Assembly (NCBI GenBank): GCA_050084515.1
Contig: CM114271.1
Location: forward strand, 11,780,001-11,844,000
Direction of reading: 5' to 3'
DNA: 64,000 nucleotides
Origin: Blasia pusilla
Taxonomy: Eukaryota
Shown here: piece by piece, positions 9,648 through 46,419 of the stretch
Layout of the letters: the number at the start of each line of letters is the position of its first letter
How positions within the stretch are numbered: the first letter of the stretch is position 1
The notes under the pieces: model-generated
What the model was told of the DNA's origin: nothing
Database searches by the model: none
The model's input: only the letters and a program-made list of their open reading frames with translations
Program-made: the position numbers and the translations under genes

Positions 9648-10014
9648 TGTCATGACCATATGGATTATGTCGTAGAGTATAGTGTGCTAGTAGAGGCCAT
9701 ACCTTATGTAGGACCATAGTGGCTAGGTAGAGATGCGGTTTCATACATAGGGTTGGGGATTACTCAGTTGGGATGACTTTCCCAGTAGGACCCACTCTTA
9801 GGTTGGAGGATATAGTGTGGAGTGTACCCAAAGAAGAGTCAGTTCTTTGAGTTGAGCCTGTTGCGTTGGGAGTTAGCCTTGGTAGTGAGAAGAGCTCTTG
9901 GCTATGGTGTTTCCCGCAAGCTTCCACCTAGATTCTCCCATCGTGGTGTGGGTTTGGCTCGATTGTATGTGATTCTATACGTATTTTATGACAGTAGGTC
10001 TTTCACGGATTTCA
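9648..10014 (+). repeat. Terminal repeat A1 of copy 1 (367 bp, TG...CA)
   Basis: Direct repeat of 21084-21450, 18822-19100, 46041-46408 and 53688-54055. TATA-like TATAG at 9811 and initiator-like TCAGTT around 9841. Confidence 0.92.
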
Positions 10015-10025
10015 CTCAAAGAATT
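10015..10025 (+). promoter_or_regulatory. Putative self-priming primer-binding site (copy 1)
   Basis: CTCAAAGAATT directly follows A1 and is complementary (one G-U pair) to AGTTCTTTGAG at 9841-9851. No tRNA-type TGG PBS adjoins the repeat. Confidence 0.75.
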
Positions 10026-11512
10026 GGAGTAGATCGATTGTAGCTTCGATTGTGGATCAAGGATCTGGTTAGGGCTGATTGTGTACTCAGCCGTGGATGT
10101 TCGTGGCTTATGGCCTATGTTGTAGGTAAGAATCTGGTGCGTGGTTGGTTGGGAAAGAAGCGCCTTGCTGAGAGCTTTCCAACGTGCTTTAGATCGCCGG
10201 ATTTCGTCAAGGGAGTTGGAAGTTATCAAGGATTGAAGATTCTGGTTCGTGTTCGACGGTTTTCTGATGTGGAGAGCTTGGAGTGCAAAAGCTCTGTTGA
10301 AGTTCATCCAGATCGGGTAAGAGGTTCCTATTGCTACTTGTATTGTGATCTCATGTGAATCTATCTGCTCGAGTGTGTGGAGCGTTGTGGATTTCTGCGT
10401 GCATGAAATCTGGGGAGCGGCTGCTGGATTTGCGATTCGGAGGTGTATGGACAGCAAGTTTGTTTGATTTTTAGCTCGGAGTACAGAGCTCGGTTGTAGC
10501 TGATTTTTTGTGGAGAGATAGCTATGGTGGTCAATTGAATTCTGGTTGAAATAGATTTAATTTTGGTTTAGGATTTGTGGAGTAAGTTCAGATCGAAATT
10601 TTGTGGACTAGCTCAAGGTTTGGCTATGGTGGACAACGGATCGGAGGGGCTGGTTGGTTGGTGACTCGTTCATTGTTGGAGATGCCTATCCCATTGGGGG
10701 CGCCCTGATTGGGCCTCTCTCCATAGCGAAGCATGGCGATAGGGGCATGTCTCGACGTTTCGAGGCTTCGAGGCAACTCGTGGTAGCTCGGGGCGAGTGG
10801 GCGTGAGAGGCGGAGTAAGGAGCAAGGAGCAAGCAAGCAAGCTTGCTTACTTGGGCGTGAGGCAGTTTTTGCAGGATTTGTGATTTGAGTGTTGCATAAC
10901 TGGTCACCCATCTTTGGGCTATTCTGCCTGGAAGACCCTTAACTGTTGAGTTCTTAACTAAGCTAGTGTACACACTGGTGTAGCTCATTTGGTGCTGTTT
11001 GGAGAGGTGTTAGGCGCTTTATGCATCTCAGGTTTTTGGTTGATGGACCTCAAGCGTATAGTACGGTGTAGCCTCTCCATGCAGGTGATATTTTCAGGTG
11101 CTGCGAGTCCGACAAGCACGTCATCGACCCGCGGCGGAGTAGCTATTGCGTTAGAATTTTGTGGTGGGTTCTGTGGATTCAGGGGGTGCCACGTTTGGTG
11201 GATTTTGTTACCTTGATTTCCATTTGCGATTGGAGGGTTGTTGTTGGACTTCATATGTTTGGATCCCCTCCATCGTTGCTTCTTGCTTGCGCGCCCATTG
11301 TTAGGGTTGACGCTGATTTCCAGAGTAGTGTTACTCCTGTGTGCTACCGATAGTGAGGCTGGAGTGATGACCAGTAGACTGTGGGAGGCTTCTTGTGGTG
11401 ATGACAAGTTAGGTTGCGTACACCCATAGCTAGTAGAGCTAGAATATTATAGCGACATCGACGTCACTTGGTTATTTGGTGGTGGTAATTTGGTGGTGGT
11501 GCGGCATCGGCG

Positions 11513-13010
11513 TTGGTCATCACGGAGCTGTCGGGAGGTCTGGTTGGGGACCGTGGTGCGGACAGTGGTGGTTTCACACGGAGTGGATTTAGGTATCGGC
11601 TACCTTTTCCACTTCCGACGGTTGATGAAGAGGAGGACGAGGGTGTTCCAAACACCGAGTCTTCTACGTTGTTATCGAGTGTTGCAGCTCCATTGATTTG
11701 GGATATGGACGGTGGATATGGGGCCATGAAGGGCCCACGACGATACTTGGGTGCAGTGGGCACCATTGAGTTGGAGGACTTCATGCAGGAGTTTGATACG
11801 TGGTGTGATATGCAGATGTTGCGGAACGCCACGTTGTTTACACCCTTCTTGGCTTGGAAGGGGTTGTTTCAGCACTTCGAGGGACCACCCATGGATGATT
11901 ACCATGAGTTTAGGAAGAACCATGTTGTTGAGATTGAGGCGTGGAGACAATATTGGTCTCCAGGCTATGTGTCTATCACCCATGGTGGTATTCGTAGTAG
12001 TGCTCCTACTATGCCATCCAGCCTGACGTTGAGTGGTACGAGTACGAGCCGGAGTGGGAGTACCAGTGGAGGTACCCATGGAGGTACCAGTGGGGGTACT
12101 AGTGGAGGTACTAGTGCCCCACCATCGTTCAGCCCGGTTGCAGAGTTCTTCAAGAGGTTGAAGAAGAACTATCACGGAGTGAAGACAGAGAAGTTGAGGA
12201 GTCTTCAGGAATTTGAGCGAAAGACTGGTAAGAGTCTTCGTGAGGCATATACTCCTATGCGACGCTTGATTTGATTACCTGGGTGTGACCGAGGCTCAGC
12301 GATCGATTTTGGTATGGGATCTTGGACGGAGAGTTGCGCCGCAGGGTACGTGATGCTACTCTTATGAGTGATGATTTACCCATATTGATCCATGTGTTTG
12401 CTCTATCTGAGAAGATTGAGCTTAACATGGTGAAGAAGAGAGTGGTGACATCCGCATTCAGTAGGGATACAACTACTACTTCTCGTGTTCAGCAGCCCAC
12501 CTTATAGTCTCGTAGTAGTGGTGGTGGTAGTAGTAGTGGGAGTCATGAGGGGTACACACGACCTCAGTCAGGTCCTAGAGGGACACTTGCGCAGAGACCA
12601 TTGCCTTCATTTGCTGCCCCGCAGCAAGGACAATCATGTTGGACATGTGGAGGTGATCATGTTAGGAAGTTTTGTCCCCAAGAGGATGGGAGACGGACTT
12701 TGGAGGATGGGCCTCAGTCGGCCCCAACTCAGTGTGATCATTGCGGGAGACCAGGTCATCCTCGAGAGCGTTGCTTTGATCTTCATCCAGAGTTGAGATC
12801 AGGCCGCGGCCGTGGTGGAGTAGCTCCGAGAGGCCGAGGTGGTAGAAGTGGTAGGGGTGGTAGAGGTGGACCAGTGGTTGGAGAGCCTACGGTGGCTACC
12901 CATACCACTACGACAGAGTCAGCTATGGCTGCCAGGATTGAGCAGTTGGAGCAGAAGTTGGCTACAATGGCTCGTATCCTGCATAGATCAGGTTCGGGAG
13001 CAGGGGCTTC
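11513..13010 (+). pseudogene. gag with two zinc knuckles (copy 1)
   Basis: CWTCGGDHVRKFC and CDHCGRPGHPRERC followed by an RGG-rich tract. 12-bp GGTS repeats near 12055-12115. Frameshifted. Confidence 0.85.
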
Positions 13011-13489
13011 CCCATTCATTCTTGTTGTCTGAGGTGCTTAGGACTCCATCCATGGTTCCTACGCAGCCTATTGAGCCGAAAGTGGGGACTGAGGCATCTA
13101 CATCGCGTGTAGTAGACACGGATGCAAAGATCAATGCAGATGTGCGGATGGCAACTTCAGTGTTGGGATCCCCATTATTTTCGGCCACGGAGCTGATGGC
13201 TTTAGGAGTTGACTTAGCTCATGTATTTCAGCTAGCAGTCACGTTGTGTGAACGTGGGGGTGTTACTGCTACACGTGCTAAGGTGGATGAGGGTATTTCC
13301 GTGGAGCGACCCCCTATGTCAGGTGTAGCATTGAGTACCTATGCTACTTGGCAGGCAGTAGCGGCGAAGATGGATGCATTACCAGCCCGGCCAGCCATTG
13401 ATCGTGAGAGGCTTACACCTGGTGTATGTATGTTGGACAAACGGAGTGGGATATTTCGACTGGTGAGTCCTACATGACAGGTGTATAGA

Positions 13490-13790
13490 CCAGATAGAGT
13501 CTTGTTAGACTTTGGTGCCCAACCTTTGATGTTGGGAAAGGCGGCATGTATTGGTTTGGCTATTCGAAGGTAAGAGCTTGAGCCTTGCCCATTCTAGATT
13601 CAAACATCACTTGGAGGTGCCAATGATAGGTCTCAATTCATGACACGGGAGAAGTTCTCTGTACAGTTGAGACCAGATCATGCGATTGATAGCTCTCGGT
13701 TCGGAGTACCCGCAATGGTCACATCAGCCGAGTCGTATGATGTACTAGTTGGAGGAGCAGTATTATACCCGATGGGTTTTCAGTTGGATT
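13490..13790 (+). pseudogene. Retroviral-type aspartic protease (copy 1)
   Basis: RVLLDFGAQPLMLG (LDSGGQPLML in the older relative near 58950) and C-terminal YDVLVGGAVL. Confidence 0.75.
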
Positions 13791-14212
13791 ATTGGACTGA
13801 GACAACGTCTTATAGACCTGGTTGGCAGTCTGGGGATGGACGTATGAGCCAAGTTCCTATGAGATTTATTTATGAGGCTCGACCAGGAGGGTCTTCCCCA
13901 ACGGTGTTAGCATCTGTGGCTGGTTTTAGTGGAGTAGTCACTTGGCTAGGAGACTTTTTGGAGGGTAATGTTTCTGCTATGGATTCTCTTGTGCACGAGG
14001 AGGTAGAGGAGGTCCCTAGTTTTGCAGCAATGGCATCCTCATCGTTGGATGTGCCACTTTGGAGTTCAGGCGGTGCACTACGGCAGGAGGCTTGGTGTGA
14101 GGCTGTTATACCTCACGAGGAAGAGGAGGCCCCACTGCGGACTCCTACTTTTGGTCTAGTTGGGTTATCCCCTTTGGATACTACACCCATTGTATGGCAG
14201 TATCCGCCGGAG

Positions 14213-15180
14213 GGCATTTGTGTGTTAGATCTCTTTGGTGGGATTTGCACTGGTTTGGCTGCAGTGTTGCAGGTCGGTATTCCTTTGCGGAGATACGTGG
14301 ATGTGGAGCGAGATGAGACGGCCCAGAGAGTCTCATCCCGACATATTGGTCAGTTGATGCGGAGATATCCTGAGTTGTTTCCGCCATCAGCTATTCGTGG
14401 GTACCAGCGTGCTTTGCCGTCACACATTGCATTGTTGGGGGCGTAGGACCTTGAGAGGGTTGGTCCTGTGGATTTGGTGATTGCAGGATGGCCATGTCAG
14501 GGTCATACGCGTGCTGGTCGTGGTGAGGGATTACACGACCCTAGGTCTTGATTGTTTTGGGAGATATTACGGGTGTTACGACATCTTCAGGTTCATCAGG
14601 CACGTGGTCCAGCTTACATTCTGAAGAATGTTCCATTGTTGGATGACACTCGGACCCGGATGATGGCGAGTGTTCATGAGGTGCGGTCTTGGATTGGACC
14701 AGCGGTGTTGTTGGATATAGCGCGAGTTGGCTCGCGTGCACATCGTCCACGCTTGTGGTGGACAAACTTGTTGCCTAGGGAGGTTCTACGTCGAGCATAT
14801 GATGCAGTGCAGCGGGATCCTTGCCTTACAGTGGATAGTGTCTTGGATACTGGGCGACTTTCTCAGGTGGTGAGGGTTATTGATCGGTCATCCATGGTAG
14901 TGGTGAACCGTGTGGGCCAGCCTAGGATGGCACTACCCACATTTGTGAGTTTTCCATCGTTACATGCCTACAGGGAAGGTGGTCACGGGCTTGTATGGGA
15001 TTCTCATGTGCGACAGTTGATGGAGACTAACACTGATGAGAGAGAGAGCGTGCGATGGGATTTGCTACTGGTGTGAAAGTGGTTACTTCCATTTCCGAGG
15101 CTTCACGACGTCATGTGTTGGATCAGGCCATGGACCTAAATTGTTTGACTTGGATTTTGAGTCTTGGTTTGGCCGAGCAG
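14213..15180 (+). pseudogene. DNMT3-like C5 cytosine DNA methyltransferase domain within the polyprotein (copy 1)
   Basis: Motif I VLDLFGGICTG, II VERD, IV DLVIAGWPCQG, VI YILKNVP (ENV in copy 2), VIII AHRPRLWWTNL, IX-X ERE..MGFATG...SRRHVLDQAMD. Confidence 0.92.
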
Positions 15181-15449
15181 CGTTGACTTTGGACTATGTC
15201 TGTGGGTCTTCCCCTTGTGATGAGCTCGATGGCTACCGGGATGGTAGAGGCATCGGCTGGGGGCGAGGAGAGTAGTATTTTGCATCCTTGGAGTAAATGG
15301 GACGTAATGGCTGGGCATGTGGAGTTGGTTGCTCATGCTAGTGGAGGAGTTATTTGCTCAGATGATGGTGTAGGTAAGGGTGTACCATCTTGTGAGGGGG
15401 TTGCGTAGTAGCCAATGGCATCGTCCTCTCCCTCTAGTGTGCCAATGGA

Positions 15450-18300
15450 GGAGACTTGGGAGCCATTACTAGGGCCCAAGCTTACGGGAGGTGAGAAACG
15501 ACGCTTGACACAGTTCCTACGTGCTTATAGGAGTTGTTTTGCCTTTAGCATGAAGGAGTTGGGTGCTCTGGTTGGACCCGGTATACGGATTGATTTGGCT
15601 AGTGATACGCCAATCTTTTGTCGTCCCTACCAATATAGTGATATGGAGAGGGAACTGATTTAGAGTAGGACGTTTGACCTTTTGGAGGCTGGATTAGTGG
15701 AATTGTCGCATGGAGAGTATGCATCAGCCAGTGTCATGCCTGCTAAAAAGGATATGCATGGCAACTACACGGATAGGCGGATGTGTGGAGATTACCGTCC
15801 TATCAATCGGCAAACCAAGGCCGATAGGTATGCCATGCCTACACCTAAGGAGATCTTTGATGTGGTGGGACAAGAAAAGATTTTCAGTACTTTGGATCTT
15901 TGGGCAAGATACCATCAATTGCCGATTCAGGAGAGTGACAAGGCCAAGACAACATTTTGGGGTGTCAACTCTCATGGCCAGGATTGTTTGTACCAGTGGA
16001 AATTCTTACCCTTTGGGTTGAAGAATGCACATGCCGAGTTTCAGAGAGTGATGGACAGGATCCTAGCAGGGTTGGATTTTGTTCGGTGTTACATTGATGA
16101 TATCTTGGTGTTGTGTAACACGGTGGAGGAGCATCAGATACATTTGCAGATTATTTTTGAGTTGTTGAAAGCTCATGGTCTAGGTTTGCATCCAGGAAAG
16201 TGTAAGTTCTTCCATGAGGATGTTGAGTACTTGAGTCATGTGATCTATCCAGGTGGTTTGGGAGTTCAGCAAGCAAAGGTGGAGGCTATTGCACTTATTC
16301 CGCGTCCGCTAGATGTGAGTAGAGTTCGGGCATTCATGGGATTGGCGAACTACTATCGGAGGTATGTGAAGGGATTTAGTGTTATGGCAAAGCCTTTGAA
16401 CCAATTGCTGAAATTAGATCAAAAGTGGCACTGGGGAGATGATCAGGAGAGAGCTTTTGTGGAGCTCAAGGCCTTGTTGGTGGCGGCGCCTATCTTGAGG
16501 AGACCTATCAGAGGGCGCCCATTTCAGTTACACACTGATCGGAGTAGGTTGAGACTTGGAGCGGTGTTGACACAACATGATGATGAGCATATGGAGTTTG
16601 TGGTGGCCTATGCAAGTCGTTCCAATAATGTAACGGAGTCGCGCTATAGTTCATATGAGGGAGAGTGCTTGGCAGTAGTGTGGGCTATGGCACACTTTAA
16701 GTGTTACTTGTTTTGCACACCGTTTACCCTTGTTACTGATCACCAGCCGCTCAAGTGGTTGATAGAGTCTGACAAGCTTACAGGGAAGCTTGCACGGTGG
16801 GCTCTTATCTTACACGAGTATGACTTCCAGGTGGTACATAGATCTGGAGTTGCCAACCTTGATGCTGAGGGGGTTAGTAGGAACCCATGTACTAGCCAAG
16901 AGGATGCAACTGGGTCTAGATGGCATGGCGAGGTTGATGAGGAGATGGTGCCAGGTTGGCATGCATCCGCCTTTTTATGTTGGTTAGGGGTGGACTCTAG
17001 TATGGACGACCACATGACATCTTACTCTAGTCAAAGGGTAGATGGCCAACCTTCAGATCATAAGGTTGGAGATGGTGGTACAGATCAGCGTGATATTCAT
17101 GATGATGCGTTGGTGTTGGAATTCCTACGGACCAGTAGGGTGCCAAGCATAGTGAGTGCCAAGGAGCGAGACCCTGTTCTTCAATGTGCTAAGAGGTATC
17201 AATTGGAGGGAACACATATTCTCCGTGTGTGGGAGGATGGTAGAGTACGAGTAGTGCCGCATTTGGCTCAGAGAGAGCGCATTGTGCAACATGCCCATGA
17301 GGAGTTGGGACATTTTGGGGTAAAGCGTACGTATAGCTTACTCCTTGGTCAGTATTGGTGGCGTGGCATGCATACTCAAGTGCAGCAGTTGGTGTCACGT
17401 TGTATGGTTTGTGACCAGGTGAGGGCATCATTCAATGCCCCTACACCACAGTTACACCCCTTGCCTATTATGGGGTTGGATTACAGTTAGAGTGTGGACT
17501 TTTGGACCGTTACGTTGACCGTTGGTATGCGACATCATCGATATGTGTTGGTGATGGTGGAGCACTTCTCCAAGTAAATTGAGTTGGTGGCATTATCTGA
17601 CAAGGCAAGTGAGGGAACGACATATGCGTTTCTTGATAGAGTGCTTACTCATTTTGGTGCACCAGCTAAAGTGCTGACCAACCAGAGTACAGAGTTTCAG
17701 GGTGAGTTTCAGGTCTTGTGTGACAAGGCGTTGATTGATCATCGGACCACGTCTCGAGATCATCCAGAGGCGGATGGTTTGGCTGAGCGTGTGGTTCAGA
17801 CGGTAAAGAGGGCATTGCGCAAGTATGGCCTACAGAAGGGGCATCTTGGAGATTGGGATATTCAGTTGCCATGGTTAGCCATGGGATATAGGTTCAATCT
17901 CCAAGCATCCTTGGCTTCCTTCTCACCTTATTTTCTGTTATATAGTCGAGATCCAGACTTGCCAACATCAATTCGTCGGGAGTCTAGTGAGGTGGTGAAC
18001 CTTGATGACCCAAAGATGTGGATGAGAGTGTGTTTTCAACGGGCAGAGCTCTTTTGGGAGAGTTATGCCAACAACCTTTGAGAACCTTGCCATTACTCAA
18101 CACAGGGATACGTTGGGGTATGCAACCATTCAGGGTGGAGGTTATCGACCATCGATTCGTAGGTTCCATGTGGGGGACTATGTCTATTTGCAGCAGATTG
18201 CACCGACAACGTTGGATGTGTCGGCAGGCCGCACTATTTTACGAGTGGGCGAGATGTTAGCTTATGGAGTTCTCATGTTGGAGGGTTGTGATGGAGTTGT
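15450..18300 (+). pseudogene. Reverse transcriptase, RNase H and DDE integrase (copy 1)
   Basis: RT: RMCGDYRPIN, LPFGLKNA, YIDDIL. RNase H: FQLHTD, YEGECLAVVWA, TDHQPLKWL. Integrase: HHCC finger HEELGH...CMVC, SVDF, VLTNQSTEF, HPEADGLAERVVQTVK. Gypsy order RT-RH-INT. Confidence 0.95.
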
Positions 18301-18397
18301 TTGGAAGGACCATGTGCGTAATTGTGCGCCATGTCATCTTCCAAATGTGGATGGTACTGTTGACCCAAGCTTAGCCATGATACGTGCTAGTTTGAGG

Positions 18398-18538
18398 TGC
18401 ATGTTGTGTGGATCTGCTGGTAACGCAATCCGTATATTGGTGTGTGATCGGTGTTCTAGGGGTTGGCACATGATGTGTTTGACTCCACATATGGATGTTG
18501 TTCCTATTGGAAGGTGGGCTTGTCCTCGATGTACTTAG
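18398..18538 (+). other. PHD finger (C4HC3) at the integrase C-terminus (copy 1)
   Basis: CMLCGSAGNAIRILVCDRCSRGWHMMCLTPHMDVVPIGRWACPRC*. Confidence 0.92.
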
Positions 18539-18713
18539 GAGAGGTAGATGACTTGATCTTTGCGTGATATGGATTACAGATAGGCGACTAACGATGGGGC
18601 AACCTAGCAACCGGCCTTATGATTCGTGCACCCAAGAAGGTGTATAGCATGTAATAGATATATATAGGGCTACCTAGGAGTTAGAGGGACCTAACCGCCA
18701 GTTAGGGGGGCGA

Positions 18714-19206
18714 GTTGTGGTACACTTGTGTTTGTGTATGCTCTCGTCTATATTATGTATGTATGTGACTATGGTATGTCAGCGATGTATGCTGTATGAC
18801 GATGTGGATTTGCACGACAGCAGTCATGACCATACGGATTATGTCGTAGAGTATAGTGTGCTAGTAGAGGCCATACCTTACGTAGGACCGTAGTGTCTAG
18901 GTAGAGATGCGGTTTCATACATAGGGTTAGGGGTTACTCAATGAGGGTGACTTTTCCAGTAGGGCCCGCTCTTAGGTTGGAGGATATAGTATGGAGTGCA
19001 CTCAAAGAACTGTTAGTTCTTTGAGTTGAGCCTGTTGCCTTGGGAGTTAGCCTTGGTAGTGAGTAGAGGTCTTGGTTGTGTTATGACTGTAGGTCTTTTA
19101 GTTATGGTACACTTGTGTATGTGTATGCTCTCGTCTATATTATGTATGCATGTGAGTATGGTATGTCAGCGATGTATGTTGTATGACAATGTGGATTCGC
19201 ACAACA
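18714..19206 (+). repeat. Internal B-A-B block: B 18714-18819, GC, A 18822-19100 (internally deleted), B 19101-19206
   Basis: Preceded by PPT AGGGGGGCGA. The sequence variant differs from A1 of this copy. Confidence 0.9.
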
Positions 19207-20213
19207 TTCTCCCTTTCAATAAGGAGTGCTGCTCTTTGCTTGGTGGTTAGATCTGGGAAGATACGGATAGCAGAATTTTTGAGGACTACTTTACTTTGGA
19301 GGATGACCAACCTCATTTCCATCGCTGGTCCGCGTTGTGAGGGATCAAATTGTACCAACATTGGCGTTGGTCGGTCCCCTATTCCTTTCCCAAGTCTGAT
19401 CCGTGTGAAGGTGACTGTTGGTGTGACCTTGAGAGTTGTGAAGACTTTCTCTTGCAAAACTGAATTATAGTCTTCTTCCTTGGAAAAGTGTAGTCCCATG
19501 ATAACTAAATTGAGTTCTTTGGTTTTCCTATCTTGGATTTCTAGGACCCTATCTGCTTCCTCTTTTGCTACCTCTTTGGCTACCTGTGTTGCAACCTCCG
19601 TGATTTGTGTTGAGGTAGTGTGCTTGCCCAGTACTTCAGTCCAGGCTCTAAGAGGATTTGCAGGGCTATTCCTTGTTAAACAATACTCTTGCATTGCTTT
19701 CCCAAGCTCAGTGTTATCCTCTTTGAAGCAGGCATCCAAGTCCTTCTTCAATTGCATGTTTTCAGCCCTCAAAGCGATCAACTCTAATTCCAGAGTTGTC
19801 TTATGAGCCGTCCATTCGAGGAGATTTGATTCCTCGGTGGACATCCATCTACCCTGCTCTTCTTTTGATGCCTGCATCATTGTATTCCATGCCAACATCT
19901 GGTTGGCCTGAAAGCTTTCCCATTTTCCTTCTAGTTCAGAGAACCTTCTAGTCATGGATGCCACTTCCAGATATGGTATAACCTCTGTTGAATGTGTGAC
20001 AGATGCATGGAGTCATTCCTTGTCACAGTGCCTCATTTTTTTCCCGACATAGTGGCGAGAGTTTGGGGCGATCAATCTCCGTGAGCCATTTGATCTCACG
20101 GATCGTCCATTGTCTCTACTCTTCATTTGCTTGTGGGAAAGATCCTTGACACAGGTCGTGTCTTGGACCTCCTCCGGTGAGGTTTCTAACGCTGGTTGTT
20201 CTGTGGTAGTCAT
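19207..20213 (-). pseudogene. LINE ORF1-like fragment (coiled coil plus RRM-like domain), 3'-truncated
   Basis: Coiled-coil stretch followed by KELNLVIMGL...RIRLGK...RPTPMLVQF...KVVLKNSAIRIFPDLT, the pattern of L1/CR1-type ORF1 proteins. Confidence 0.7.
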
Positions 20214-20515
20214 GGGTGCAGTGTTTACTCGATGTAGTGGTCGATGTGCTCAAGCAGTGGGAATGGGGAAAACAATTAGATAGGGTGTGCTTTACTCCAT
20301 AGAAACCATAGTCCCATGTATGGAGTCAGAGGGAGGTCAGAGCTTGAGAATCGTCTCAACATCACTGGCTTTTGCCCGTTCCATGGTTAGGCAGGATCGT
20401 CCAGGGAGGTGCAGCCCGATTTTGCTGGGAGTTCCTGGTCCGTGAGTAGAGAGAAGGGTATAAAGTAGGGAGACTCTGAAAACGGGGTTGGAATTTGACA
20501 GAAAAGTTGGACCAT

Positions 20516-20688
<173 letters not shown>

Positions 20689-20692
20689 TTGA

Positions 20693-21556
20693 TGTCTATG
20701 TTGGTGTGTGATCGATGTTCTAGGGGTTGGCACATGATGTGTTTGACTTCACGTATGGATGTTGTTCCTAGTGGAAGGTGGGTATGTCCTCGATGTATTT
20801 AAGAGAGGTAGATGACTTGATCTTTGCATGATATGGATTACAGATGTGCGACTAACGATGGGGCAACCTAGCACCCGACCTTCTGATTCGTGCATCCACG
20901 AAGGTGTATAGCATGTAGTAGATGTATAGGGCTACCACAGGAGTTAGAGGACCTAACCGCCGATTAGGCCTGAGAGTTGTGGTACACTTATGTTTGTGGA
21001 TGCTCTCGTCTATGTTATGTATGTATGTGAGTATGGTATGTCAGCGATGTATGTTGTATGACGATGTGGATTCGCACGACAGCTGTCATGACCATACGGA
21101 TTATGTCGTAGAATATAGTGTGCTAGTAGAGGCCATACCTTATGTAGGACCGTAGTGGCTAGGTAGAGATACGGTTTCATACATACGGTTGGGGGTTACT
21201 CAGTTGGGATGACTTTCCCAGTAGGGCCCGCTCTTAGGTTGGAGGATATAGTGTGGAGTGCACCCAAAGAACAGTTAGTTCTTTGAGTTGAGCCTGTTGC
21301 GTTGGGAGTTAGTCTTGGTAGTGAGTAGAGCTCTTGGCTATGGTGTTTCCCGCAAGCTTCGACCTAGATTCTCCCATCATGGAGTGGGTTTGGCTCGATT
21401 GTATGTGATTCTATACGTGTTTTATGACAGTAGCTCTTTCACGGATTTTAGTTGTGGTACACTTATGTTTGTGGATGCTCTCGTCTATGTTATGTATGTA
21501 TGTGAGTATGGTATGTCAGGGATGTATGTTGTATGACGATGTGGATTCGCACGACA
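20693..21556 (+). repeat. Second 3' end of copy 1: half PHD, 3' UTR, B1 20976-21081, GC, A2 21084-21450, B2 21451-21556
   Basis: Repeats about 18433-19206. A2 shares diagnostic bases with A1 (TTGGGATGACTTTCCC, TATAGTGTGG, CCCAAAG). Followed by the TSD. Confidence 0.92.
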
Positions 21557-23425
21557 CATGACCTACTATCCTTTGGACATCTAGGACATAGCCATTATCT
21601 CGTGGGAACTGCGGCTAGAGGGAGGGTCAGACACGACATATGTCACCCTCAAGAACAACCATCACACACCAACATGGTGTGGGCACCCCTTGCAGATCCA
21701 CACAACATACACCTCAAGCCCGCAAGTACTATTTCCAAGCTAGGATCCATTTTCGGGTCCATGTTTGGAAGATGACATGGCGCACATGATCCTTCCAAAC
21801 CATACCATATCATCCCTTCCCTCCAGCAAGAGGACTCCAATCAGTAACGCCTCATGTCTACGCAAAATCATACACCCTCCAATGACATCTCGTATCATGG
21901 GTGCCGCCTATTGTAAATACACATAATCTCTAGGATGAAACCTCCTAATCCCCTGGACGATAACCTCCTCCACGAATGATTGCGTACCTCAATGTATCCT
22001 TATGGTGAGCAACCGGTAAGTTCTCAAATGCCATGGGCATAAGTCTATGAAAAATCTCTGCCCTTTAAGAACATGCTTGCAACCACACATCCAGGTCATC
22101 AAGATCCAACACCACCGCCATGTCACTTTGAATGGTCGCTAGTAAATCCTGCTCTCTCCCATAGAACAAAATATACGTGAAAATGAGGCCAAGGATGCCA
22201 ACTGAAGCGATATTCCATAGCCAACCAAGGAAATTGTAGGTCTACTCCCTCAAGTGTACATTCTACAAGCCATACTTGCGCAACCCTCTCTTACTTATAC
22301 TTATGTCCGGTTGGCACGCATATACCTTTCTTTATTATCTGACATAGTCAACTAATAAAGAAAGGTAGATACGTGCCAACCGGACATAATCTCCTCATCA
22401 CTCTCTTCGTGCCATTGAGCTCTTGTGTTCTCTCTAACTCGGGCATGGATTGCGATTCAACCCATCTGCATCTTGATTCAACCAAACTCTCCTATGAACC
22501 ATCTCAAACTCATACTCCTATAGTAATAGAGTCCACTTGGCAAGCTTCCTCATAAGCTTATCGGACTCCATCAACCACCTTAACGGCTGATGATCACAGA
22601 TAAGTGGGGGAAATGATTTTCAAATAGATAGCACCTGAAATGTGCCACATCCCACATTACAACCAAACAATCTCCCTCGTAGGAATTGTATTTTGCCTCT
22701 ACAATATTGTTCGATTGGCTTGCATAAGCCATAACGAACTCCCTCTTCTCTTCATCTCTTTAAGTGAACAATCCTCCTAGACCCAACATGCTCCAATCTG
22801 TATGTATCTGGAAAAGAAGACACGTAACCGGTCTCTGTAAAATGGTTGAGGATATCAACCTATCCTTGAGCTCTTGAAATGCTTGCTCCTTATCATCTAC
22901 CCAATGCCAAACCTAATCAAGTCTCGTCTTCAAGGTCAAAGACTTTGCGATCGCACTAAAACTCTTAACATATAGTCGATAGAAGTTCGCTAGTCGTAGA
23001 AATGCTCGTACTCAACTCACATTCATAGGGGATGCAATCTAGGAAATTCCCTCCACCTTAATTTACTAACACCTAACCCACCCAGGTAGATGGTGTGTCC
23101 CAAATACTGGATCCGCTCTTGAAAGAACCTGCACTTGCCTAGATGCAACTTCCGTCCAAGTAACTGCAATCGCCGAAACACCTCCTCGAAGTGTCGCTCA
23201 TACTTCTCAACCGTGGAATTGCTGATAAGGATATCATCTATGTTACACCGTGCAAAATCCAAGCCAACTGGACTTCTATCCATCACTCTTTGGAACTCCG
23301 CAAGGGCGTTCTTCAACCCAAATGGTAAGAACCACCATTGGTACAAACAATCTCTCCCAAACCGATCTGTCACCAAAATTGATGTCTTCTCCCTTTTCTC
23401 CATCCAGATAGGAAGTTGATGATCC

Positions 23426-26400
23426 CCAGAAATGGCGCCAAAATGTCATAGCAAGTAATACATGGCCAGCACACAACCCAAGTGAAAATATTGCTATTTC
23501 CACCAGTTCGGTCCCATGTAAGAGCTTAGGGCCAGGCCAAAAGATCAGAACTCTATGATGTACTCCTTAATAGCTGTAAACCCCACCTCTTTACCTTAAG
23601 AGGCTGGAGAAACAATCTCCACTTCAGTATCACAATCCTATCCTCACCACACTAACCAAAACTCCTTCCATTCTCTTGAATGCTTTGAGTGGAGTGGCCA
23701 GTGGAACCCAACAAGCACACTCTACTTAGAAATCACAATCAAGAATGACCAGGGCAGCATAAGGTCCTCCAATGTGCTCCCTTGGACTAGTTGAATGTAC
23801 CAAGGAAATCCTCTAAAGCACACACAACTCCTAACTGATCAAGTAGTGCAATCACCTTTTGATCCTCACCGAGTATCTAGTAAGAGCTTGGATGTAGTTT
23901 TTAGTCCTTAGATAGAGTGTCCAGTGGCAATCCAACCAACACACCTACTCAAGGCTCACAACTAGAGACTACTAAAACAACATAAGGCCATCCAATACGC
24001 TGTCTAGTATAATCATCCACCCCCAGGGTAGCCTAAAAGGGATGCAACTCTCTATTTGCTCAAACCAACACCCACATCCCTTCTTCTTCTCCTCTTACCT
24101 TGCTGGTCCTTTGTTCTCCCTCCTTGTTCAGGTAGTAGGAGACTTAACAGGCTGAGCCCATGGTCTTCTACCTCTAGTGAAGCTCAAGCATGACCATCTT
24201 TCTCCACTCACTAATCTCTTATCACTTAGCAGACCTGGAAGTCCAGGTTGTCACATCCTAGAAGTAATCAATGATTGGTGTCAAAGGCCATACTCAGGTG
24301 GGCACAACAACAAGCTTTCAAAGCACACCTTGGAGGAGTACAATCTTGGAACCTAAGCTTGCCTCCTCTATTGGTATAGCCTCTTGTCCACTCACTACAC
24401 TTTTGAATGATTAGTTGAACTAGCTCCAAGAATCTCACTTCATCAAGCCCTCCAACTCATCACTCAATCATGCACAAACTCAAATACAGGGTAGTGGAGT
24501 GAAATCATTCCAAAGGGGCTACTTTATGTATATCACAAAGCCATCTAGTACATGGGAGACCTTCTTAGTCTCAGCCCCTTCAAGCACACTACACACTACC
24601 TAGATCTGGGAGCACATACTCTGCTGGTTAGCTTGGCTGAAGAGATCAAGTGTCTGCATGTATGCCCCCCTTTACTAAACCAAGCTGAGCACTTATAAGT
24701 GAAGCTGAGAGCCCTCTACCTACTTGAGCTTCTCTGGTATTCTTGTCTTCTACCTTCCTATAAATCTACCTCCCCCTAAGCATCTACTCCAAGGCATCTA
24801 CTGCCTGAAATTTCTACCTCATCTACTTCTGAACCTGCCCTAACTAAAGCCTCTTGAGCAGCATTGATGGCATAGGCTCGACTTGTCTCTTGGACATGCT
24901 TGAAGGTAAGATATACCTCTATATTCTTCCCATGCTTGCTTCTTCTCAAGCTGGTTCAAGCCCTGCCCTCAGTTCACACCTCCACTTAGCTCCACCTGCA
25001 CAAATCTTCAAGAAATCTCTCCTTGGATCCTCTCAGCTCCATAGATCTCTCCCTTGGATTCTCAAGCTTTCTGGCCTTCAAATGAGGTCCTCTAGGCTTC
25101 CATGAGTAACCTTCTAGCCCACAAGAGTCCAAGCATTTGAGCTCAGCCTCCATTGACCTCTTCTTAGCCCCTTATTCTTCATTTCTCGGCCCTAACAATC
25201 AGATCCACCTCCTTGGTTCGAACCCTCCTCTACAACAGCAATCAAGCACTCTATCTCCTTCATTGGATACCCTGGATACTCCCTAGTGCCTAGACCATCT
25301 CCCTTGGATCCTCTAGGCTCAAGGTCAATGGAGTGACCTGGCTGCATTATCACTTTGTACAATCTTCTTGACTTGTTCTCGGACAGCCTGCTGCAGGGCC
25401 CTTCTCTTGCACCACCTCCCTGTATTCCAGCCTCCCCTCCAGCCTCCCCTCGAGCATCCTATGTGCCCAACCAATCCTTGATAAGCTTGATTCAAGAGCA
25501 CAAACATATTAAGAGTCCAAGGGCAAAGATATGCCACCACTCCTCTCAAGCATTGGTCCATCCAAGCCCTTGAAATCACCCTACCTAGTTGTCCACTTTT
25601 CTGTCACCATAGCTTCCCAAGCTCAGCCCTCGTGGAGTATCCTATGCTCCTCATTACTTGCTGAAAATTCTTGTGGGTGACCTCCATAGTTGAGAGCATC
25701 TCAAGGCAAATCCATACCATCAATCATATCAAGATTTGGCTCACTAGTGCTCTAGGTAGCAGCCCTCGGATAGCCTGCCCTCCTATTTTCCAAAAATCCA
25801 GATTCCTTGCCTTTCTAATCTACCTTGAGAATTCTAGCCTAGCATCCAATGTCTTGATTCAAATGTATCATCTTGAAGAGCATCCAAAGACCTTTCTAAC
25901 GAGCCTATTCAATCACCAAACCGATCAGCCAAGCTCTAGCCATCAACATTTGATTCTCCCCTCTATGCTGGCCACCATAGCTCCAAGCTTTGTCATGTGC
26001 CCGTCGAACTTCAGGCCTAGACACTTTCCTATTGACACTATTCTAACCTCACTCTACTGGCTAGTAAGTCCCCTCTAAAACTTCCCCTAACTTAGCCACC
26101 GCTTTAGTCGACCTACCAGTTTAGAGTGGCCTTATAACTCCACTAAAAACCTTCCCTAAGTCAAGCCTTCCTAGTAGAATTTGATAAGTGCTATGGAGAG
26201 GTGTCCCATTCATCAATCACTTTCTTAACACTGATTATCTTGGCCATTGGCTAACCCTACATACACTCAATCCAACCAAGGTTGACTTAACTACAGCTAA
26301 AGTAACTACGGTTATTCTAACTAGGGTTAATTTAACTCTTGTTAGTCTAACTACAGCTAACCTATCCCCTCGTTAGACTTAAGAGCAGAGTGCTCACCAG

Positions 26401-26618
26401 GTTGCCTCACTATACCCTTGTTTTCTCTATCTAGGTTACCCTGGTTAAAGAGTACCTTGAGTTAAGAGCATAGGGTAACCCCAACTAACTACTTCTATCA
26501 CCTAACTCACCCATTTAAATTGTAGACTGTTGTTCTAGCTCCTTCCACTCACCTAACTAGAGACCCAAAAGTATCTAACACACATGGGAGCCACTTATGA
26601 AGGGGCGCACAGCCAACA
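23426..26618 (-). mobile_element. About 3.2-kb insertion in the RT of family 2; possibly a long LTR with an Athila/Tat-like PBS
   Basis: Splits RT between STLDLH and HQLPI. The minus strand starts TGTTGG, ends TGACA at 23444, and is followed by TTT-TGGCGCCATTTCTGGGGA. Confidence 0.45.
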
Positions 26619-28019
26619 TGGAGATCTAAAGTACTGAAGATCTTTGCATGCCCTACCGTATCAAAGATCTCCTTAGGAGTAGGAATGGCATATCGATCTG
26701 ACCTCATCTCTCGATTGCTAGGACGGTAATCTCCACACATCCACCTATCTATCAAGTTGCCAAACATATCCTTCTTTGCCAGCGTGATTGTGGTAGATGC
26801 ATACTCACCATGCGATAACTCCATCAGTCTTGCCTCCCACAAGTCATGATACCTACAATGAATCAAGGTTCTTTCCAAATCACAATACCTATAGGGGCGA
26901 AGAAAGGTCAGTGTATCACTAACCAAATCTATTTGTATCCTCATACCCTTCAAAGTACCCAAGTCTCTCATACTCAAGGAAAAAACTATGTATCCACTGT
27001 CTCTCTCCTTTTTTCAAGTGGAGAACTATCATAAGCCCCCAAGTCTCTATTGTGACCTCACTCGAAGAAGACACAACCTCCGACTTTGGTTGTTATGTAG
27101 CAACCCTAGCCACCTCCACTACGACCACCCCACTCTAACCTTCCACATCATGCTTCACACCGGAAAATGAACATATGCTACTCTAGCCGTCTACGCACTC
27201 TCTGCTCAGAAAACGTCCCAAGAAGTCCATGTGTGCATATCTCTCCTCGTCTCGCCCCTAGGCAATCCCTCTATAGACCTTGTAGGAAATGCAACAACTT
27301 GTAGACGTGACGACATGAATGACACTCGCATATGCCTTTGCTCAGTCAAACCTAGATTGACTATCCATGTGAGACACTTGAGGTCCATTGTATGCCCCAA
27401 CACTTCTCTCCGTGATGCCTCTGTCACATTTGGCATTTCCATAGTACCCATAGTGAACCTCATGGCGCACTCGCGCTCATTAACTTTGGGCTCCTCCAAT
27501 GCTCGGGTCTCTTCAGCCCATATCATGCATGGCCCTTCCTGATGATAGGCATGGGATGCGGGAAAGCTCATCAATGTAGATAAGGCCGCCCTCGACTCCC
27601 CCACCCTATTGGCTATTGCCAATGGTGGTCTATCATATATCCTACCTCACCACTTGAGACCGACGCGGTGGACCCAGGATAGCATCCACTATCAAGTGTG
27701 GTACTCTCTCAACTCCATCATGAGCTTGCCTCAATACCTTTGATGGTTGAAGGTTGGTCCACCACAACCGTACCGTAGACAGAGAGCATGCAATCCAACT
27801 CTTGTTGCATCCAAAAATACGGAAGGTCCCAATCAAAACCTCACTTCATGCACACTTTTCATCACCCGTGCACGAGTGTCTCCCAACAATGGCTCGTTCT
27901 CCAAAATGAAGGCTGGAGAACATGTCTAACTCTAATGTAAGTGTCTTAATACTCAGAGCTTCTCCCAAAAGATCCCTAACCTTGGATTCCTCAATCCAAA
28001 CCCTTAGACAGCCGATGAA

Positions 28020-44800: not shown

Positions 44801-44834
44801 AAACCAAAACAAGGCAGAAAACTTCTCTCTAAAG

Positions 44835-46408: not shown

Positions 46409-46419
46409 CTCAAAGAACT
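46409..46419 (+). promoter_or_regulatory. Putative self-priming primer-binding site (copy 2)
   Basis: CTCAAAGAACT is the exact reverse complement of AGTTCTTTGAG at 46235-46245, which starts 30 nt after TATAAG (46205). Confidence 0.8.

What the first reader, a model, noticed from the sequence alone, without database searches (positions are those of the whole stretch)
14213..15180. DNMT3-like methyltransferase placed between protease and RT
Seen: motifs I, II, IV, VI, VIII, IX and X in unpermuted order, including the catalytic PC and ENV (copy 2). Known: VLDLFGGISTG, AHRPRLWWTNL and ERERAMGF...SRRHVLG parallel DNMT3 (VLSLFDGIATG, AHRARYFWGNL, EMERVFGF...ARQRLLG), whereas plant DRM enzymes are circularly permuted. 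The domain is retained in three diverged families, implying selection. Inference: it is released by the protease and packaged with RT.
Basis: partly seen in the sequence, partly recalled or inferred. Interest (0 to 1): 0.8.

Follow-up and report, generated by a model that had tools for sequence, protein, structure and literature searches.

The report
Decayed retrotransposon copies carrying DNMT3
The window holds four decayed copies of a plant jumping gene that carries its own DNA-methylating enzyme, a rare kind already published for a green alga, seen here in a probably bryophyte genome with the enzyme placed just ahead of a leaky-looking stop codon.

Summary
At 14213-15180 there is an unpermuted DNMT3-type cytosine-C5 methyltransferase domain. 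Read with X at its stops it scores 34.1 bits against PF00145 (cut-off 22). 29 of 30 PDB sequence hits and all listed fold matches are DNMT3A/B/C.

It lies between protease and RT in four Ty3/Gypsy-type elements of three diverged families. All four copies are pseudogenes.

Between families, dN/dS of the domain is 0.11-0.31, like RT-RNase H. Two intact relatives give 0.12.

The kind is known. KnitGypsy-Dnmt3 of Klebsormidium (de Mendoza 2018) also combines a DNMT3 domain in a Gypsy element with the odd A-coding-B-A-B repeats found here.

Three things go beyond what I could find in print:
- The closest named relatives are liverwort and moss proteins.
- The wider family has two architectures, RT-RH-DNMT-IN-PHD and gag-PR-DNMT-RT, which split cleanly on the DNMT tree.
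- One in-frame stop with a TMV-like context (TAG CAR CCA) separates DNMT from RT in all three families. It is also there in 19 clean metagenome loci, one of them fully intact.

So DNMT is probably the C-terminal domain of a Gag-PR-DNMT product, and RT-IN-PHD is probably made by readthrough. Function is inferred, not shown.

The parts
9648..21556 (+). Copy 1, whole element. TG...CA ends, flanked by CATG at 9644-9647 and 21557-21560. Holds an internal anomaly at 18433-20696.
   Evidence: repeat mapping and ends; tblastn order gag-PR-DNMT-RT-RH-IN-PHD
9648..10012 (+). 5' repeat A of copy 1 (about 365 bp), 95.1% identical to A2 at 21084-21448
11705..12972 (+). gag-like region with two CCHC knuckles (CWTCGGDHVRKFC, CDHCGRPGHPRERC)
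   Evidence: translation; 62-66% identity to residues 1-413 of P0002. No Pfam hit.
13052..13900 (+). Protease region. The active-site motif reads LLDFGA (13502-13519), where intact relatives have LLDSGA. Three stops.
   Evidence: Relatives carry PF13650/PF13975. L028 ORF1 scores 22.4 bits against Asp_protease_2, below the 24.3 cut-off.
14213..15180 (+). The finding: DNMT3-type C5 methyltransferase domain of copy 1. Stops at 14444 and 14549, frameshift near 15040-15048, ENV changed to KNV.
15406..15414 (+). Boundary stop between DNMT and RT in copy 1: TAG TAG CCA. The second TAG stands where the other copies have CAR.
15457..18081 (+). RT (RVT_1), RNase H and integrase (H2C2 zinc finger, rve core) of copy 1
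   Evidence: RVT_1 93 bits, RT_RNaseH 114 bits, Integrase_H2C2 57.6 bits; rve only 18.3 bits, below its cut-off
18398..18532 (+). PHD finger at the C-terminal end of the integrase ORF
   Evidence: PF00628, 37.3 bits, cut-off 24
18433..20696 (+). Anomaly inside copy 1. A first 3' end (B 18713-18819, shortened A 18823-19075, B 19100-19206) is followed by about 1.5 kb of unrelated DNA with a (GA)n run and a 290-aa minus-strand ORF.
20975..21556 (+). 3' terminal repeats of copy 1: B1 (20975-21081), A2 (21084-21448), B2 (21450-21556). The B1-A2 junction reads ...CGACA GC TGTCATG..., that is the 3' end of the element, two bases, then its 5' end.
46041..54161 (+). Copy 2, same family as copy 1 (94% nucleotide identity). 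Flanked by CCTT at 46037-46040 and 54162-54165. Lies nested inside copy 4. Most of RT-RH-IN is deleted.
50745..51680 (+). DNMT domain of copy 2: one frame, two stops (50868, 50973), PCH, ENV, ERERAMGF, SRRHVLGQAMD
51936..51944 (+). Boundary stop of copy 2: TAG CAG CCA. The RT ORF follows in the same frame with no further stop.
21568..29747 (-). Copy 3, a diverged and heavily decayed family. DNMT pieces at 29747-29402 and 28027-27212 are separated by about 1.4 kb. RT at 26983-22437, PHD at 21789-21568.
27087..27095 (-). Boundary stop of copy 3: TAA CAA CCA
54162..60069 (-). Copy 4, a third diverged family. gag 60069-59470, PR 59335-58364, DNMT 58373-57142 (motif I partly deleted, many stops), RT-RH-IN 56990-54130. 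Continues beyond the copy 2 insertion at 46040-45626.
57036..57044 (-). Boundary stop of copy 4: TAG CAA CCA

Best explanation
What it is. These are four dead genomic copies, from three diverged families, of a Ty3/Gypsy-type LTR retrotransposon lineage of green plants. The lineage carries a captured DNMT3-type cytosine-C5 DNA methyltransferase and a PHD finger after its integrase.

Shown:
- The domain order is gag(CCHC)-protease-DNMT | stop | RT-RNase H-integrase-PHD.
- The ends are TG...CA with 4-bp target duplications.
- The repeats are arranged A-coding-B-A-B.
- The DNMT evolved under purifying selection about as strong as that on RT.
- Intact relatives exist elsewhere.

Inferred, about 0.7: the single in-frame stop after DNMT (TAG/TAA followed by CAR CCA) is a programmed leaky stop of the tobacco-mosaic-virus type. 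The main product would be Gag-PR-DNMT. A minority of ribosomes would read on to make Gag-PR-DNMT-RT-RH-IN-PHD. DNMT would then enter the particle with every Gag molecule, far in excess of RT and integrase, whether or not the protease frees it.

Inferred, about 0.4: in active elements the enzyme methylates the element's own newly made cDNA, before or at integration, as de Mendoza et al. proposed for DNMT-bearing retrotransposons. The PHD finger would tie integrase to chromatin.

The copies in this window do nothing now. They decayed largely by CpG-type transitions.
For: Identity of the domain:
- PF00145 above cut-off.
- 29 of 30 PDB sequence hits are DNMT3A/B/C, aligned collinearly.
- AlphaFold2 pLDDT 95.8, and all 31 rows listed by Foldseek are DNMT3A/B/C.

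Place in the element:
- tblastn with intact relatives gives the same order in all four copies.
- Pfam finds RVT_1, RNase H, Integrase_H2C2 and PHD above their cut-offs.
- TG...CA ends and 4-bp duplications; copy 2 sits precisely nested in copy 4.

Known kind:
- The Fig. 4c legend of PMC5890265 says KnitGypsy-Dnmt3 has DIRS-like repeats with Gypsy domains, and that paper defines DIRS-like as A-coding-B-A-B. I find exactly this arrangement here.

Selection:
- DNMT dN/dS between families is 0.11-0.31, against 0.21-0.29 for RT-RH. It is 0.95 between the sister copies 1 and 2.
- Two loci with unbroken DNMT give 0.12 over 322 codons at dS 0.26.
- PCQ, ENV, HRxR and EREREAMGF-type motifs (ERERAMGF) are invariant in 10 aligned relatives.

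Leaky stop:
- The stop with CAR CCA sits at the same place in three of the four window copies, one per family. In copy 1 the CAR codon reads TAG.
- Of 58 metagenome loci with a stop after DNMT, 19 have TAR CAR YYN as the first stop, with RT in the same frame 52-73 nt on and no other stop. 5 more have the context but end before RT. 2 more have it in decayed form.
- L028 is fully intact: ORF1 of 1369 aa (PR, DNMT), then TAG CAG TTA, then ORF2 of 1047 aa (RT, RH, IN, PHD).
- 20 of the 22 nearest database proteins end 17-183 residues after DNMT without any RT.
- CAR YYA 3' of UAG is the tested tobamovirus signal. UAA and UGA in that context still leak, and changing the C after the stop abolishes readthrough (passages of PMC2754532).

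Decay:
- The private stops of copies 1 and 2 are CGA to TGA changes.
- 58 of 371 mismatches between the two copies are CpG-type transitions.
Against: - No copy in the window is intact, so nothing can be said about activity in this genome.
- No activity has been shown for any Gypsy-borne DNMT3. The K. nitens domain gave no methylation in yeast, which the authors call inconclusive because human DNMT3B also failed.
- Readthrough is inferred from sequence only.
- In 13 of the 19 clean loci the third codon is CCC, and in 1 it is CCT, so 14 of 19 miss the strict YYA. 7 of the 19 use TAA.
- Many of these loci are decayed copies of one family and are not independent. By eye there are about 7 distinct lineages.
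- 32 of the 58 loci do not show the pattern as the first stop. Most look decayed, 4 have RT in another, overlapping frame, and 1 has no stop before RT.
- Some more distant relatives with DNMT before RT are one continuous ORF (P0059, P0202).
- Many relatives have ECQ instead of PCQ at the catalytic motif.
- No conserved RNA structure follows the stop. That is expected for a TMV-type signal but removes a second line of support.
Confidence: 0.6

Rival explanations
1. The domain is not a DNA methyltransferase in the element's life cycle. It is either a pseudo-enzyme kept as a nucleic-acid-binding or structural module of Gag-PR, or an RNA m5C methyltransferase acting on the genomic RNA or the primer.
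For: - The K. nitens domain gave no DNA methylation in yeast.
- Many relatives carry ECQ instead of PCQ (56 of 165 on the RT-RH-DNMT-IN side and 16 of 55 on the other side read GWECQ).
- de Mendoza et al. raise RNA methylation for the LINE-borne DNMT.
Against: - The catalytic Cys, ENV Glu, HRxR and motif I glycines are invariant in the 10 nearest relatives and dominant across the 220 database domains examined.
- The fold and the best sequence matches are to DNMT3 DNA enzymes, not to DNMT2.
- The yeast result was declared inconclusive by its authors.
Confidence: 0.2
2. The stop after DNMT is a true terminator. RT-RH-IN-PHD is made separately, by reinitiation at a nearby ATG, from a spliced or subgenomic RNA, or by frameshifting. 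DNMT is then never fused to RT.
For: - An ATG lies two codons after the stop in copies 1 and 2 and in the commonest metagenome family (TAG CAA CCC ATG).
- 4 loci have RT in another, overlapping frame.
- The third codon is often CCC, outside strict YYA.
Against: - The ATG is absent in copy 3, copy 4, L007, L019, L028, L029, L038 and L053, while CAR YY is kept in all of them.
- RT is in the same frame with no other stop in 19 loci.
- The C right after the stop, whose change abolishes TMV readthrough, is invariant in the 10 sequences aligned.
Confidence: 0.2
3. The enzyme works on chromosomal DNA, not on the cDNA. It methylates the new insertion and its surroundings, or rival elements. This would act as self-restraint or copy-number control, or as a way to blend into heterochromatin, with the PHD finger choosing the chromatin.
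For: - PHD fingers follow the integrase in both architectures.
- Copy 2 landed inside an older relative.
- In K. nitens the copies are CHG/CHH-methylated and silent.
Against: - Nothing here separates this from cDNA methylation.
- The host's own machinery explains methylated silent copies.
- There is only one confirmed nested insertion.
Confidence: 0.2
4. Chance or artefact: a fragment of a host DNMT3 gene lying next to a retrotransposon, or an assembly chimera.
For: None found.
Against: - The same position between PR and RT is seen in four copies of three families in this window.
- Among 271 database proteins with the domain, 163 carry RT or integrase beside it.
- An intact two-ORF element has the same order.
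Confidence: 0.01

Closest known systems
KnitGypsy-Dnmt3 of Klebsormidium nitens (de Mendoza et al. 2018, PMC5890265; sections 9 and 10, passages and one supplementary table read)
   Same: - An unpermuted DNMT3-type domain inside the coding region of an LTR Gypsy element.
- Repeats arranged as in DIRS elements (A-coding-B-A-B) but with Gypsy domains.
- Purifying selection on the domain (their Ka/Ks < 0.2; here 0.11-0.31, and 0.12 in intact relatives).
   Different: - The host here is not Klebsormidium. All 20 named proteins among the 49 closest are from liverworts and mosses.
- I could not see their Fig. 4c or any K. nitens sequence. Whether their DNMT sits before RT or between RNase H and integrase, and whether a stop follows it, is open.
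- Their survey list held no Marchantia or Sphagnum.
Green-algal Gypsy elements with RT-RNase H-DNMT-integrase-PHD (for example pol of Scenedesmus sp. PABB004, and proteins of Monoraphidium neglectum and Cymbomonas tetramitiformis)
   Same: A related DNMT domain (30-40% identity), the same RT, RNase H and integrase types, and the same PHD finger after integrase.
   Different: The DNMT lies between RNase H and integrase. On the DNMT tree this architecture is one side of a branch (SH-aLRT 99; one change of state among 154 rows).
SymbioDIRS-Dnmt3 of Symbiodinium (PMC5890265)
   Same: A DNMT3-type domain in Pol, A-coding-B-A-B repeats, and two domain orders coexisting.
   Different: It is a DIRS element with a tyrosine recombinase. 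The elements here have a DDE integrase, TG...CA ends and 4-bp target duplications. CG methylation in yeast was shown for that domain and for no Gypsy-borne one.
Cellular DNMT3A/3B/3C catalytic domain
   Same: Fold, motif order I-X, PC, ENV, and AHRxR(Y/L)(F/W)W(G/T)NL.
   Different: About 20-23% identity. There is no PWWP or ADD domain. The stretch between motifs VIII and IX is about 20 residues longer. It is encoded in a polyprotein.
Plant DRM methyltransferases
   Same: A DNMT3-related catalytic core.
   Different: DRM is circularly permuted. The single DRM-type PDB hit (4onj; that it is tobacco DRM is recalled) matched query residues 14-138 to chain residues 229-347, that is out of order. 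This domain is not permuted.
Tobamovirus replicase leaky stop (UAG CAR YYA), and gag-pol readthrough of gammaretroviruses (the latter recalled)
   Same: An in-frame stop separates an abundant upstream product from the polymerase, and the same two downstream codons follow the stop.
   Different: Here the signal lies after protease and DNMT, not after gag. No experiment has been done. The third codon is often CCC.

Membership tests
C5 cytosine DNA methyltransferase (PF00145) | Score above Pfam's gathering cut-off | tested here: met
   Copy 1 read with X at stops scores 34.1 bits and copy 2 scores 26.3-26.8 bits, against a cut-off of 22. Only motifs IV-VI are matched. The fragments of copies 3 and 4 gave no hit.
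C5 cytosine DNA methyltransferase (PF00145) | Catalytic motifs I, IV (PC), VI (ENV), VIII, IX and X present | tested here: inconclusive
   All are present across copies 1 and 2 taken together, but no single copy has them all intact. Copy 1 has KNV, copy 2 has PCH. They are intact in relatives.
C5 cytosine DNA methyltransferase (PF00145) | Open reading frame able to make the enzyme | tested here: not met
   Copy 1 has two stops and a frameshift, copy 2 has two stops, and copies 3 and 4 have many.
DNMT3 family | Closest solved relatives by sequence and by fold are DNMT3 enzymes, with collinear motif order | tested here: met
   29 of 30 PDB sequence hits. All 31 rows listed by Foldseek are DNMT3A/B/C, over 321-345 alignment columns.
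DNMT3 family | Placement inside the DNMT3 clade on a tree with DNMT1, DNMT2, DNMT5 and DRM | not tested
DRM (permuted DNMT3 relatives of plants) | Motifs VI-X precede motifs I-IV | tested here: not met
   The order here is I, IV, VI, VIII, IX, X.
Gypsy-DNMT3 retrotransposons (KnitGypsy-Dnmt3 kind) | A DNMT3-type domain inside the coding region of an element with Gypsy-type RT, RNase H and DDE integrase | tested here: met
Gypsy-DNMT3 retrotransposons (KnitGypsy-Dnmt3 kind) | DIRS-like repeat layout A-coding-B-A-B | tested here: met
   Seen in copies 1 and 2 and in a spare 3' end. The feature is stated for KnitGypsy-Dnmt3 in the Fig. 4c legend.
Gypsy-DNMT3 retrotransposons (KnitGypsy-Dnmt3 kind) | Sequence kinship with the K. 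nitens copies | not testable with these tools
   No K. nitens protein appeared by name. The paper's figures and PDF supplements are not readable here.
Ty3/Gypsy LTR retrotransposon | RT-RNase H-integrase order, TG...CA ends and a short target duplication | tested here: met
   (CCTT for copy 2, CATG for copy 1)
Ty3/Gypsy LTR retrotransposon | Two equal long terminal repeats | tested here: not met
   The 5' end has A only and the 3' end has B-A-B.
Type I (tobamovirus-like) programmed stop-codon readthrough | UAG followed by CAR YYA, with the downstream ORF in the same frame | tested here: met
   Copy 2 has TAG CAG CCA, copy 4 has TAG CAA CCA, copy 3 has TAA CAA CCA, and copy 1 is mutated to TAG TAG CCA. 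5 of the 19 clean loci fit strict YYA and all 19 fit YYN.
Type I (tobamovirus-like) programmed stop-codon readthrough | Measured readthrough | not testable with these tools
   Needs a reporter assay or proteomics.

The most novel reading that the evidence does not exclude
Bryophyte Gypsy-DNMT3 elements are a distinct architectural branch of a pan-green-plant lineage of DNMT- and PHD-bearing retrotransposons. In this branch the methyltransferase has been moved, or was captured, upstream of RT into the Gag-protease reading frame, ahead of a tobamovirus-type leaky stop. Every capsid subunit would then deliver one DNMT, so the particle is loaded with methyltransferase in large excess over RT and integrase. 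The cDNA would be methylated inside the particle, and the element would enter the genome already carrying the host's silencing mark.
Probability: 0.3. Interest if true: 0.7.

Novelty: new member of a known kind. Interest (0 to 1): 0.45.

Why it matters
Cytosine methylation is the host's main weapon against transposons, so a transposon that carries its own de novo methyltransferase is a paradox. Only the Klebsormidium and Symbiodinium cases are described in the papers I could search.

If the reading here holds, three things follow:
- Such elements are widespread in green plants. They include relatives in the model liverwort Marchantia, where their function could be tested genetically.
- The domain has taken two different places in the polyprotein.
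- In the bryophyte branch the domain is expressed with Gag rather than with RT. That fixes its dose and points to action inside the particle.

The open question of what a transposon-borne DNMT is for then becomes testable with reporter, proteomic and methylome experiments.

For this window alone the find is ordinary: four dead copies.

Tried and rejected
- Whole-genome search of the window's own assembly: no genome is held.
- Earlier notes of this scan: nothing by place or by sequence. A word search gave one unchecked lead on a diatom element.
- Finding K. nitens sequences or their domain order. No K. nitens name appeared. The text of PMC5890265 gives no order, and its figure and PDF supplements cannot be read. 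The Atlas search gave only generic DNA-methylase clusters.
- Host identity from the U-box/ARM gene: one hit, Calypogeia fissa at 41% identity. That is too weak to name a host. I thought of Sphagnum after reading P0017, but tblastn gave only 57-58%.
- RNA structure after the stop: consensus energy -2.5 kcal/mol, with 0 of 5 predicted pairs showing a compensatory change. I rejected it as a stimulator.
- Search for the rest of copy 3 upstream of copy 1, to test whether copy 1 is also nested: nothing found.
- Direct repeats in the intact locus L028: none. The contig probably lacks the terminal repeats.
- Pfam on the gag and protease ORFs of the window: no hits.
- Tree root: no cellular DNMT3 outgroup was available, so the direction of the change between the two architectures is unknown.
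Full report
**What is at the coordinates**

Translating 13931-15420 in one frame gives ICVLDLFGGICTG, GWPCQG, ILKNV and AHRPRLWWTNL. After a frameshift near 15040-15048 it gives ERERAMGF and SRRHVLDQAMD. This copy has in-frame stops at 14444 and 14549. Its ENV glutamate is changed to lysine.

That copy is in one frame but has stops at 50868 and 50973, and reads PCH for PCQ.

The match is far beyond chance:
- PF00145 scores 34.1 bits for copy 1 read with X at the stops and 26.3-26.8 bits for copy 2. The cut-off is 22.
- Of 30 distinct PDB sequences hit at E<=0.01, 29 are DNMT3A, 3B or 3C, aligned collinearly from motif I to motif X.
- The thirtieth, 4onj (recalled to be tobacco DRM), matches out of order, as a permuted enzyme should.
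- An AlphaFold2 model of the copy 2 domain, built on 45 aligned relatives, has mean pLDDT 95.8.
- All 31 rows listed by Foldseek are DNMT3A/B/C chains or complexes holding them. TM-score by target is 0.79-0.83 for targets the size of the catalytic domain and 0.41-0.56 for longer chains; best E is 1e-18.

**The elements**

tblastn with intact relatives shows four elements, each in the order gag, protease, DNMT, RT, RNase H, integrase.

| Copy | Strand | Span | Notes |
|---|---|---|---|
| 1 | + | 9648-21556 | holds the finding |
| 2 | + | 46041-54161 | 94% identical to copy 1 over 6160 aligned bases; most of RT-IN deleted |
| 3 | - | about 29747-21568 | diverged, heavily decayed |
| 4 | - | 60069-54162, continuing at 46040-45626 | diverged; interrupted by copy 2 |

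Copies 3 and 4 are 42-56% identical in DNMT protein sequence to copies 1 and 2 and to each other, and are riddled with stops. So three families are present, and none is intact.

In copy 1, Pfam confirms RVT_1, RNase H, the integrase zinc finger and a PHD finger after integrase. The rve core scores below its cut-off.

Copy 2 starts TGTCATG and ends CGACA, and is flanked by CCTT on both sides. The sequences either side of it are adjacent parts of copy 4, so it is a clean nested insertion with a 4-bp duplication. Copy 1 is flanked by CATG.

**Repeat layout**

The repeats are unusual. The 5' end has one repeat A of about 365 bp. The 3' end has B (107 bp), then A, then B. The internal B-A junction reads as the element's 3' end, two bases, then its 5' end.

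**Comparison with print**

de Mendoza et al. 2018 (PMC5890265; sections 9 and 10 and passages read) described KnitGypsy-Dnmt3 of Klebsormidium nitens. It has these features:
- unpermuted DNMT3-type domains inside the Pol ORF of an LTR Gypsy element;
- Ka/Ks below 0.2;
- a repeat structure 'the same as that of a DIRS retrotransposon' with Gypsy domains.

The same paper defines the DIRS layout as A-coding-B-A-B. The window's elements meet each of these stated features. Two later texts refer to 'streptophytes (Gypsy-DNMT3)' as known (passages). The kind is therefore known.

Their survey list contains Physcomitrella and Klebsormidium but no Marchantia or Sphagnum (supplementary table). Five searches found no paper describing such elements in liverworts or mosses. 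Subscription journals and the paper's PDF supplements were out of reach.

**Relatives**

Among 49 longer proteins matching the domain, 20 carry organism names, and all 20 are bryophytes: 17 Marchantia polymorpha, 1 Calypogeia fissa and 2 Sphagnum. The best identity is 73%.

A full HMMER scan of 1.84 billion cluster representatives found 1952 proteins at E<=1e-3 and 194 at E<=1e-30, so the family is large.

**Two architectures**

Pfam on 26 long relatives gave:
- 22 with RT-RNase H before the DNMT and/or integrase (mostly with PHD) after it;
- 2 with DNMT before RT (P0059, P0066);
- 2 with DNMT only.

With home-made profiles, 271 of the 275 proteins then held have the domain:
- 141 show the first order;
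- 22 show the second;
- 108 show DNMT alone.

Named members of the first order are chlorophytes: Scenedesmus, Monoraphidium and Cymbomonas.

On a FastTree of 223 DNMT domains the two orders need only one change of state. On an IQ-TREE of 61 rows, the 29 rows of the first order form one side of a branch with SH-aLRT 99. I picked those 61 from 223: all rows with DNMT before RT, 15 named or near rows, 26 random rows of the first order, and named ones.

The window's copies sit with the Marchantia and Calypogeia proteins in a starred set of 11 rows. The tree is unrooted, so the direction of the change is unknown.

I could not learn which order the K. nitens element has.

**Selection**

I mapped codons of each copy to reference proteins by tblastn, dropped stop codons and unaligned positions, and used Nei-Gojobori.

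| Comparison | Region | dN/dS |
|---|---|---|
| between families | DNMT (277-298 codons) | 0.11-0.31 |
| between families | RT-RNase H | 0.21-0.29 |
| copy 1 vs copy 2 | DNMT | 0.95 |
| copy 1 vs copy 2 | gag | 0.94 |

dS between families exceeds 1, and alignment through protein favours low dN, so these values are rough.

A cleaner case is two metagenome loci with unbroken DNMT. L028 against L029 gives dN 0.031, dS 0.261 and dN/dS 0.12 over 322 codons.

**Decay of copies 1 and 2**

- Their private stops are CGA to TGA changes.
- 242 of 371 mismatches between them are transitions, 58 of them CpG-type.
- They share a TAG at the same codon (14444 and 50973) and share DFG for DSG in the protease.
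- The shared defects hint that their common source was already defective, or that these sites mutate recurrently.

**The stop between DNMT and RT**

In all four copies, the DNMT frame ends about 80-100 codons after motif X at an in-frame stop followed by the same two codons:

| Copy | Position | Reading |
|---|---|---|
| 2 | 51936 | TAG CAG CCA |
| 4 | 57044, minus strand | TAG CAA CCA |
| 3 | 27095, minus strand | TAA CAA CCA |
| 1 | 15406 | TAG TAG CCA |

In copies 1 and 2 the RT reading frame follows in the same frame.

I fetched 80 related metagenome loci and walked from the DNMT to the first stop. 61 loci had the DNMT C-terminal half, and 58 of these had a stop before the locus end.
- In 19, the first stop is TAG (12) or TAA (7), then CAA (17) or CAG (2), then CCC (13), CCA (1), CCT (1), TTA (2) or TCA (2). 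RT follows in the same frame 52-73 nt on, with no other stop.
- 5 more have the context, but the locus ends before RT.
- 2 have it in decayed form.
- The other 32 have an earlier stop (mostly decayed copies), or RT in another, overlapping frame (4), or no stop before RT (1), or the other architecture (1).

Many of these loci belong to one family. By their flanks I count about 7 lineages that keep stop-CAR-YY while the neighbouring codons differ.

Locus L028 is fully intact. ORF1 has 1369 aa with protease and DNMT, then comes TAG CAG TTA, then ORF2 of 1047 aa with RT, RNase H, integrase and PHD.

20 of the 22 nearest database proteins end 17-183 residues after the DNMT with no RT.

CAR YYA after UAG is the tested leaky-stop signal of tobamoviruses. 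UAA and UGA in that context still leak, and changing the C after the stop abolishes leakage (passages of PMC2754532). No conserved RNA structure follows the stop, as expected for that type.

**How it most likely works**

Shown are the anatomy, the selection and the conserved stop context.

Inferred at about 0.7: the primary product is Gag-PR-DNMT, and RT-RH-IN-PHD is made as a readthrough extension. DNMT would then be packaged with every Gag, whether or not the protease frees it.

Inferred at about 0.4, following de Mendoza et al.: it methylates the element's cDNA.

Against these inferences:
- No Gypsy-borne DNMT3 has shown activity, and the yeast test was inconclusive.
- Many relatives have ECQ for PCQ.
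- Strict YYA is met in only 5 of the 19 clean loci.

**Host**

A U-box plus ARM-repeat gene lies at 38832-43047. Its only named relative is from the liverwort Calypogeia, at 41% identity. The host is a streptophyte and probably a bryophyte. I cannot say more.

**Verdict**

It belongs to a published kind and is dead in this window. The bryophyte distribution, the two architectures and the leaky-stop placement are the parts worth following up.

Noticed in passing
window 46037-46040 and 54162-54165; 54162-54467 and 45626-46040: Copy 2 is inserted, in the opposite orientation, into the integrase/PHD region of the older copy 4, with a 4-bp duplication CCTT. The two flanks are adjacent in copy 1 coordinates (18305-18308).
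   Followed up: yes
window 18433-20696: Copy 1 carries a second, partly deleted 3' end (B-A-B at 18713-19206). This is followed by about 1.5 kb of foreign DNA with a long (GA)n run (about 20500-20700) and a 290-aa minus-strand ORF (19140-20012) that has no convincing Pfam match (ACBP4_C 16.6 bits, below cut-off).
   Followed up: partly
window 14444 and 50973; 13511 and 50024: Copies 1 and 2, which are separate insertions, share a TAG stop at the same DNMT codon. Copy 3 also has a stop there, while relatives have P or Q. They also share DFG for DSG at the protease active site. Either a defective master copy was mobilised in trans or these sites mutate recurrently.
   Followed up: partly
window 20975-21081 against 21450-21556; 53579-53685 against 54055-54161: Within a copy the two B repeats are 99-100% alike, while the two A repeats are only 95.1% (copy 1) and 97.5% (copy 2). 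A G-rich run (GGGGGGCGAG) lies just upstream of B1 in copies 1 and 2. How an element with A-coding-B-A-B repeats replicates while using a DDE integrase is unexplained.
   Followed up: no
relatives P0051-P0275 (alignment made): Motif IV reads GWECQ instead of GWPCQ in 56 of 165 domains on the RT-RH-DNMT-IN side and in 16 of 55 on the other side. The proline before the catalytic cysteine is replaced by glutamate.
   Followed up: no
window 28028-29401 (minus-strand copy 3): About 1.4 kb separates the motif I-IV half from the motif VI-X half of copy 3's DNMT. It is probably a later insertion. Not examined.
   Followed up: no
window 38832-39341 and 39883-43047: A host gene on the plus strand: a RING/U-box ORF, then a 1054-aa ORF with armadillo repeats of the plant U-box type. 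Its only named relative is Calypogeia fissa at 41% identity.
   Followed up: partly
window 1125-2966: A 613-aa open frame on the plus strand with no Pfam family at E<=0.01.
   Followed up: no
window 44941-45280 and 44816-44937 / 45373-45494: A short plus-strand RT fragment lies between two 122-bp direct repeats (72% alike), in the region where the 3' end of copy 4 is expected. The layout is not resolved.
   Followed up: no
loci L022, L030, L031, L040: In these relatives the RT frame overlaps the end of the DNMT frame by 9 nt in another frame (context TGA TAG GGC CCA). This may be a frameshift variant or decay.
   Followed up: no
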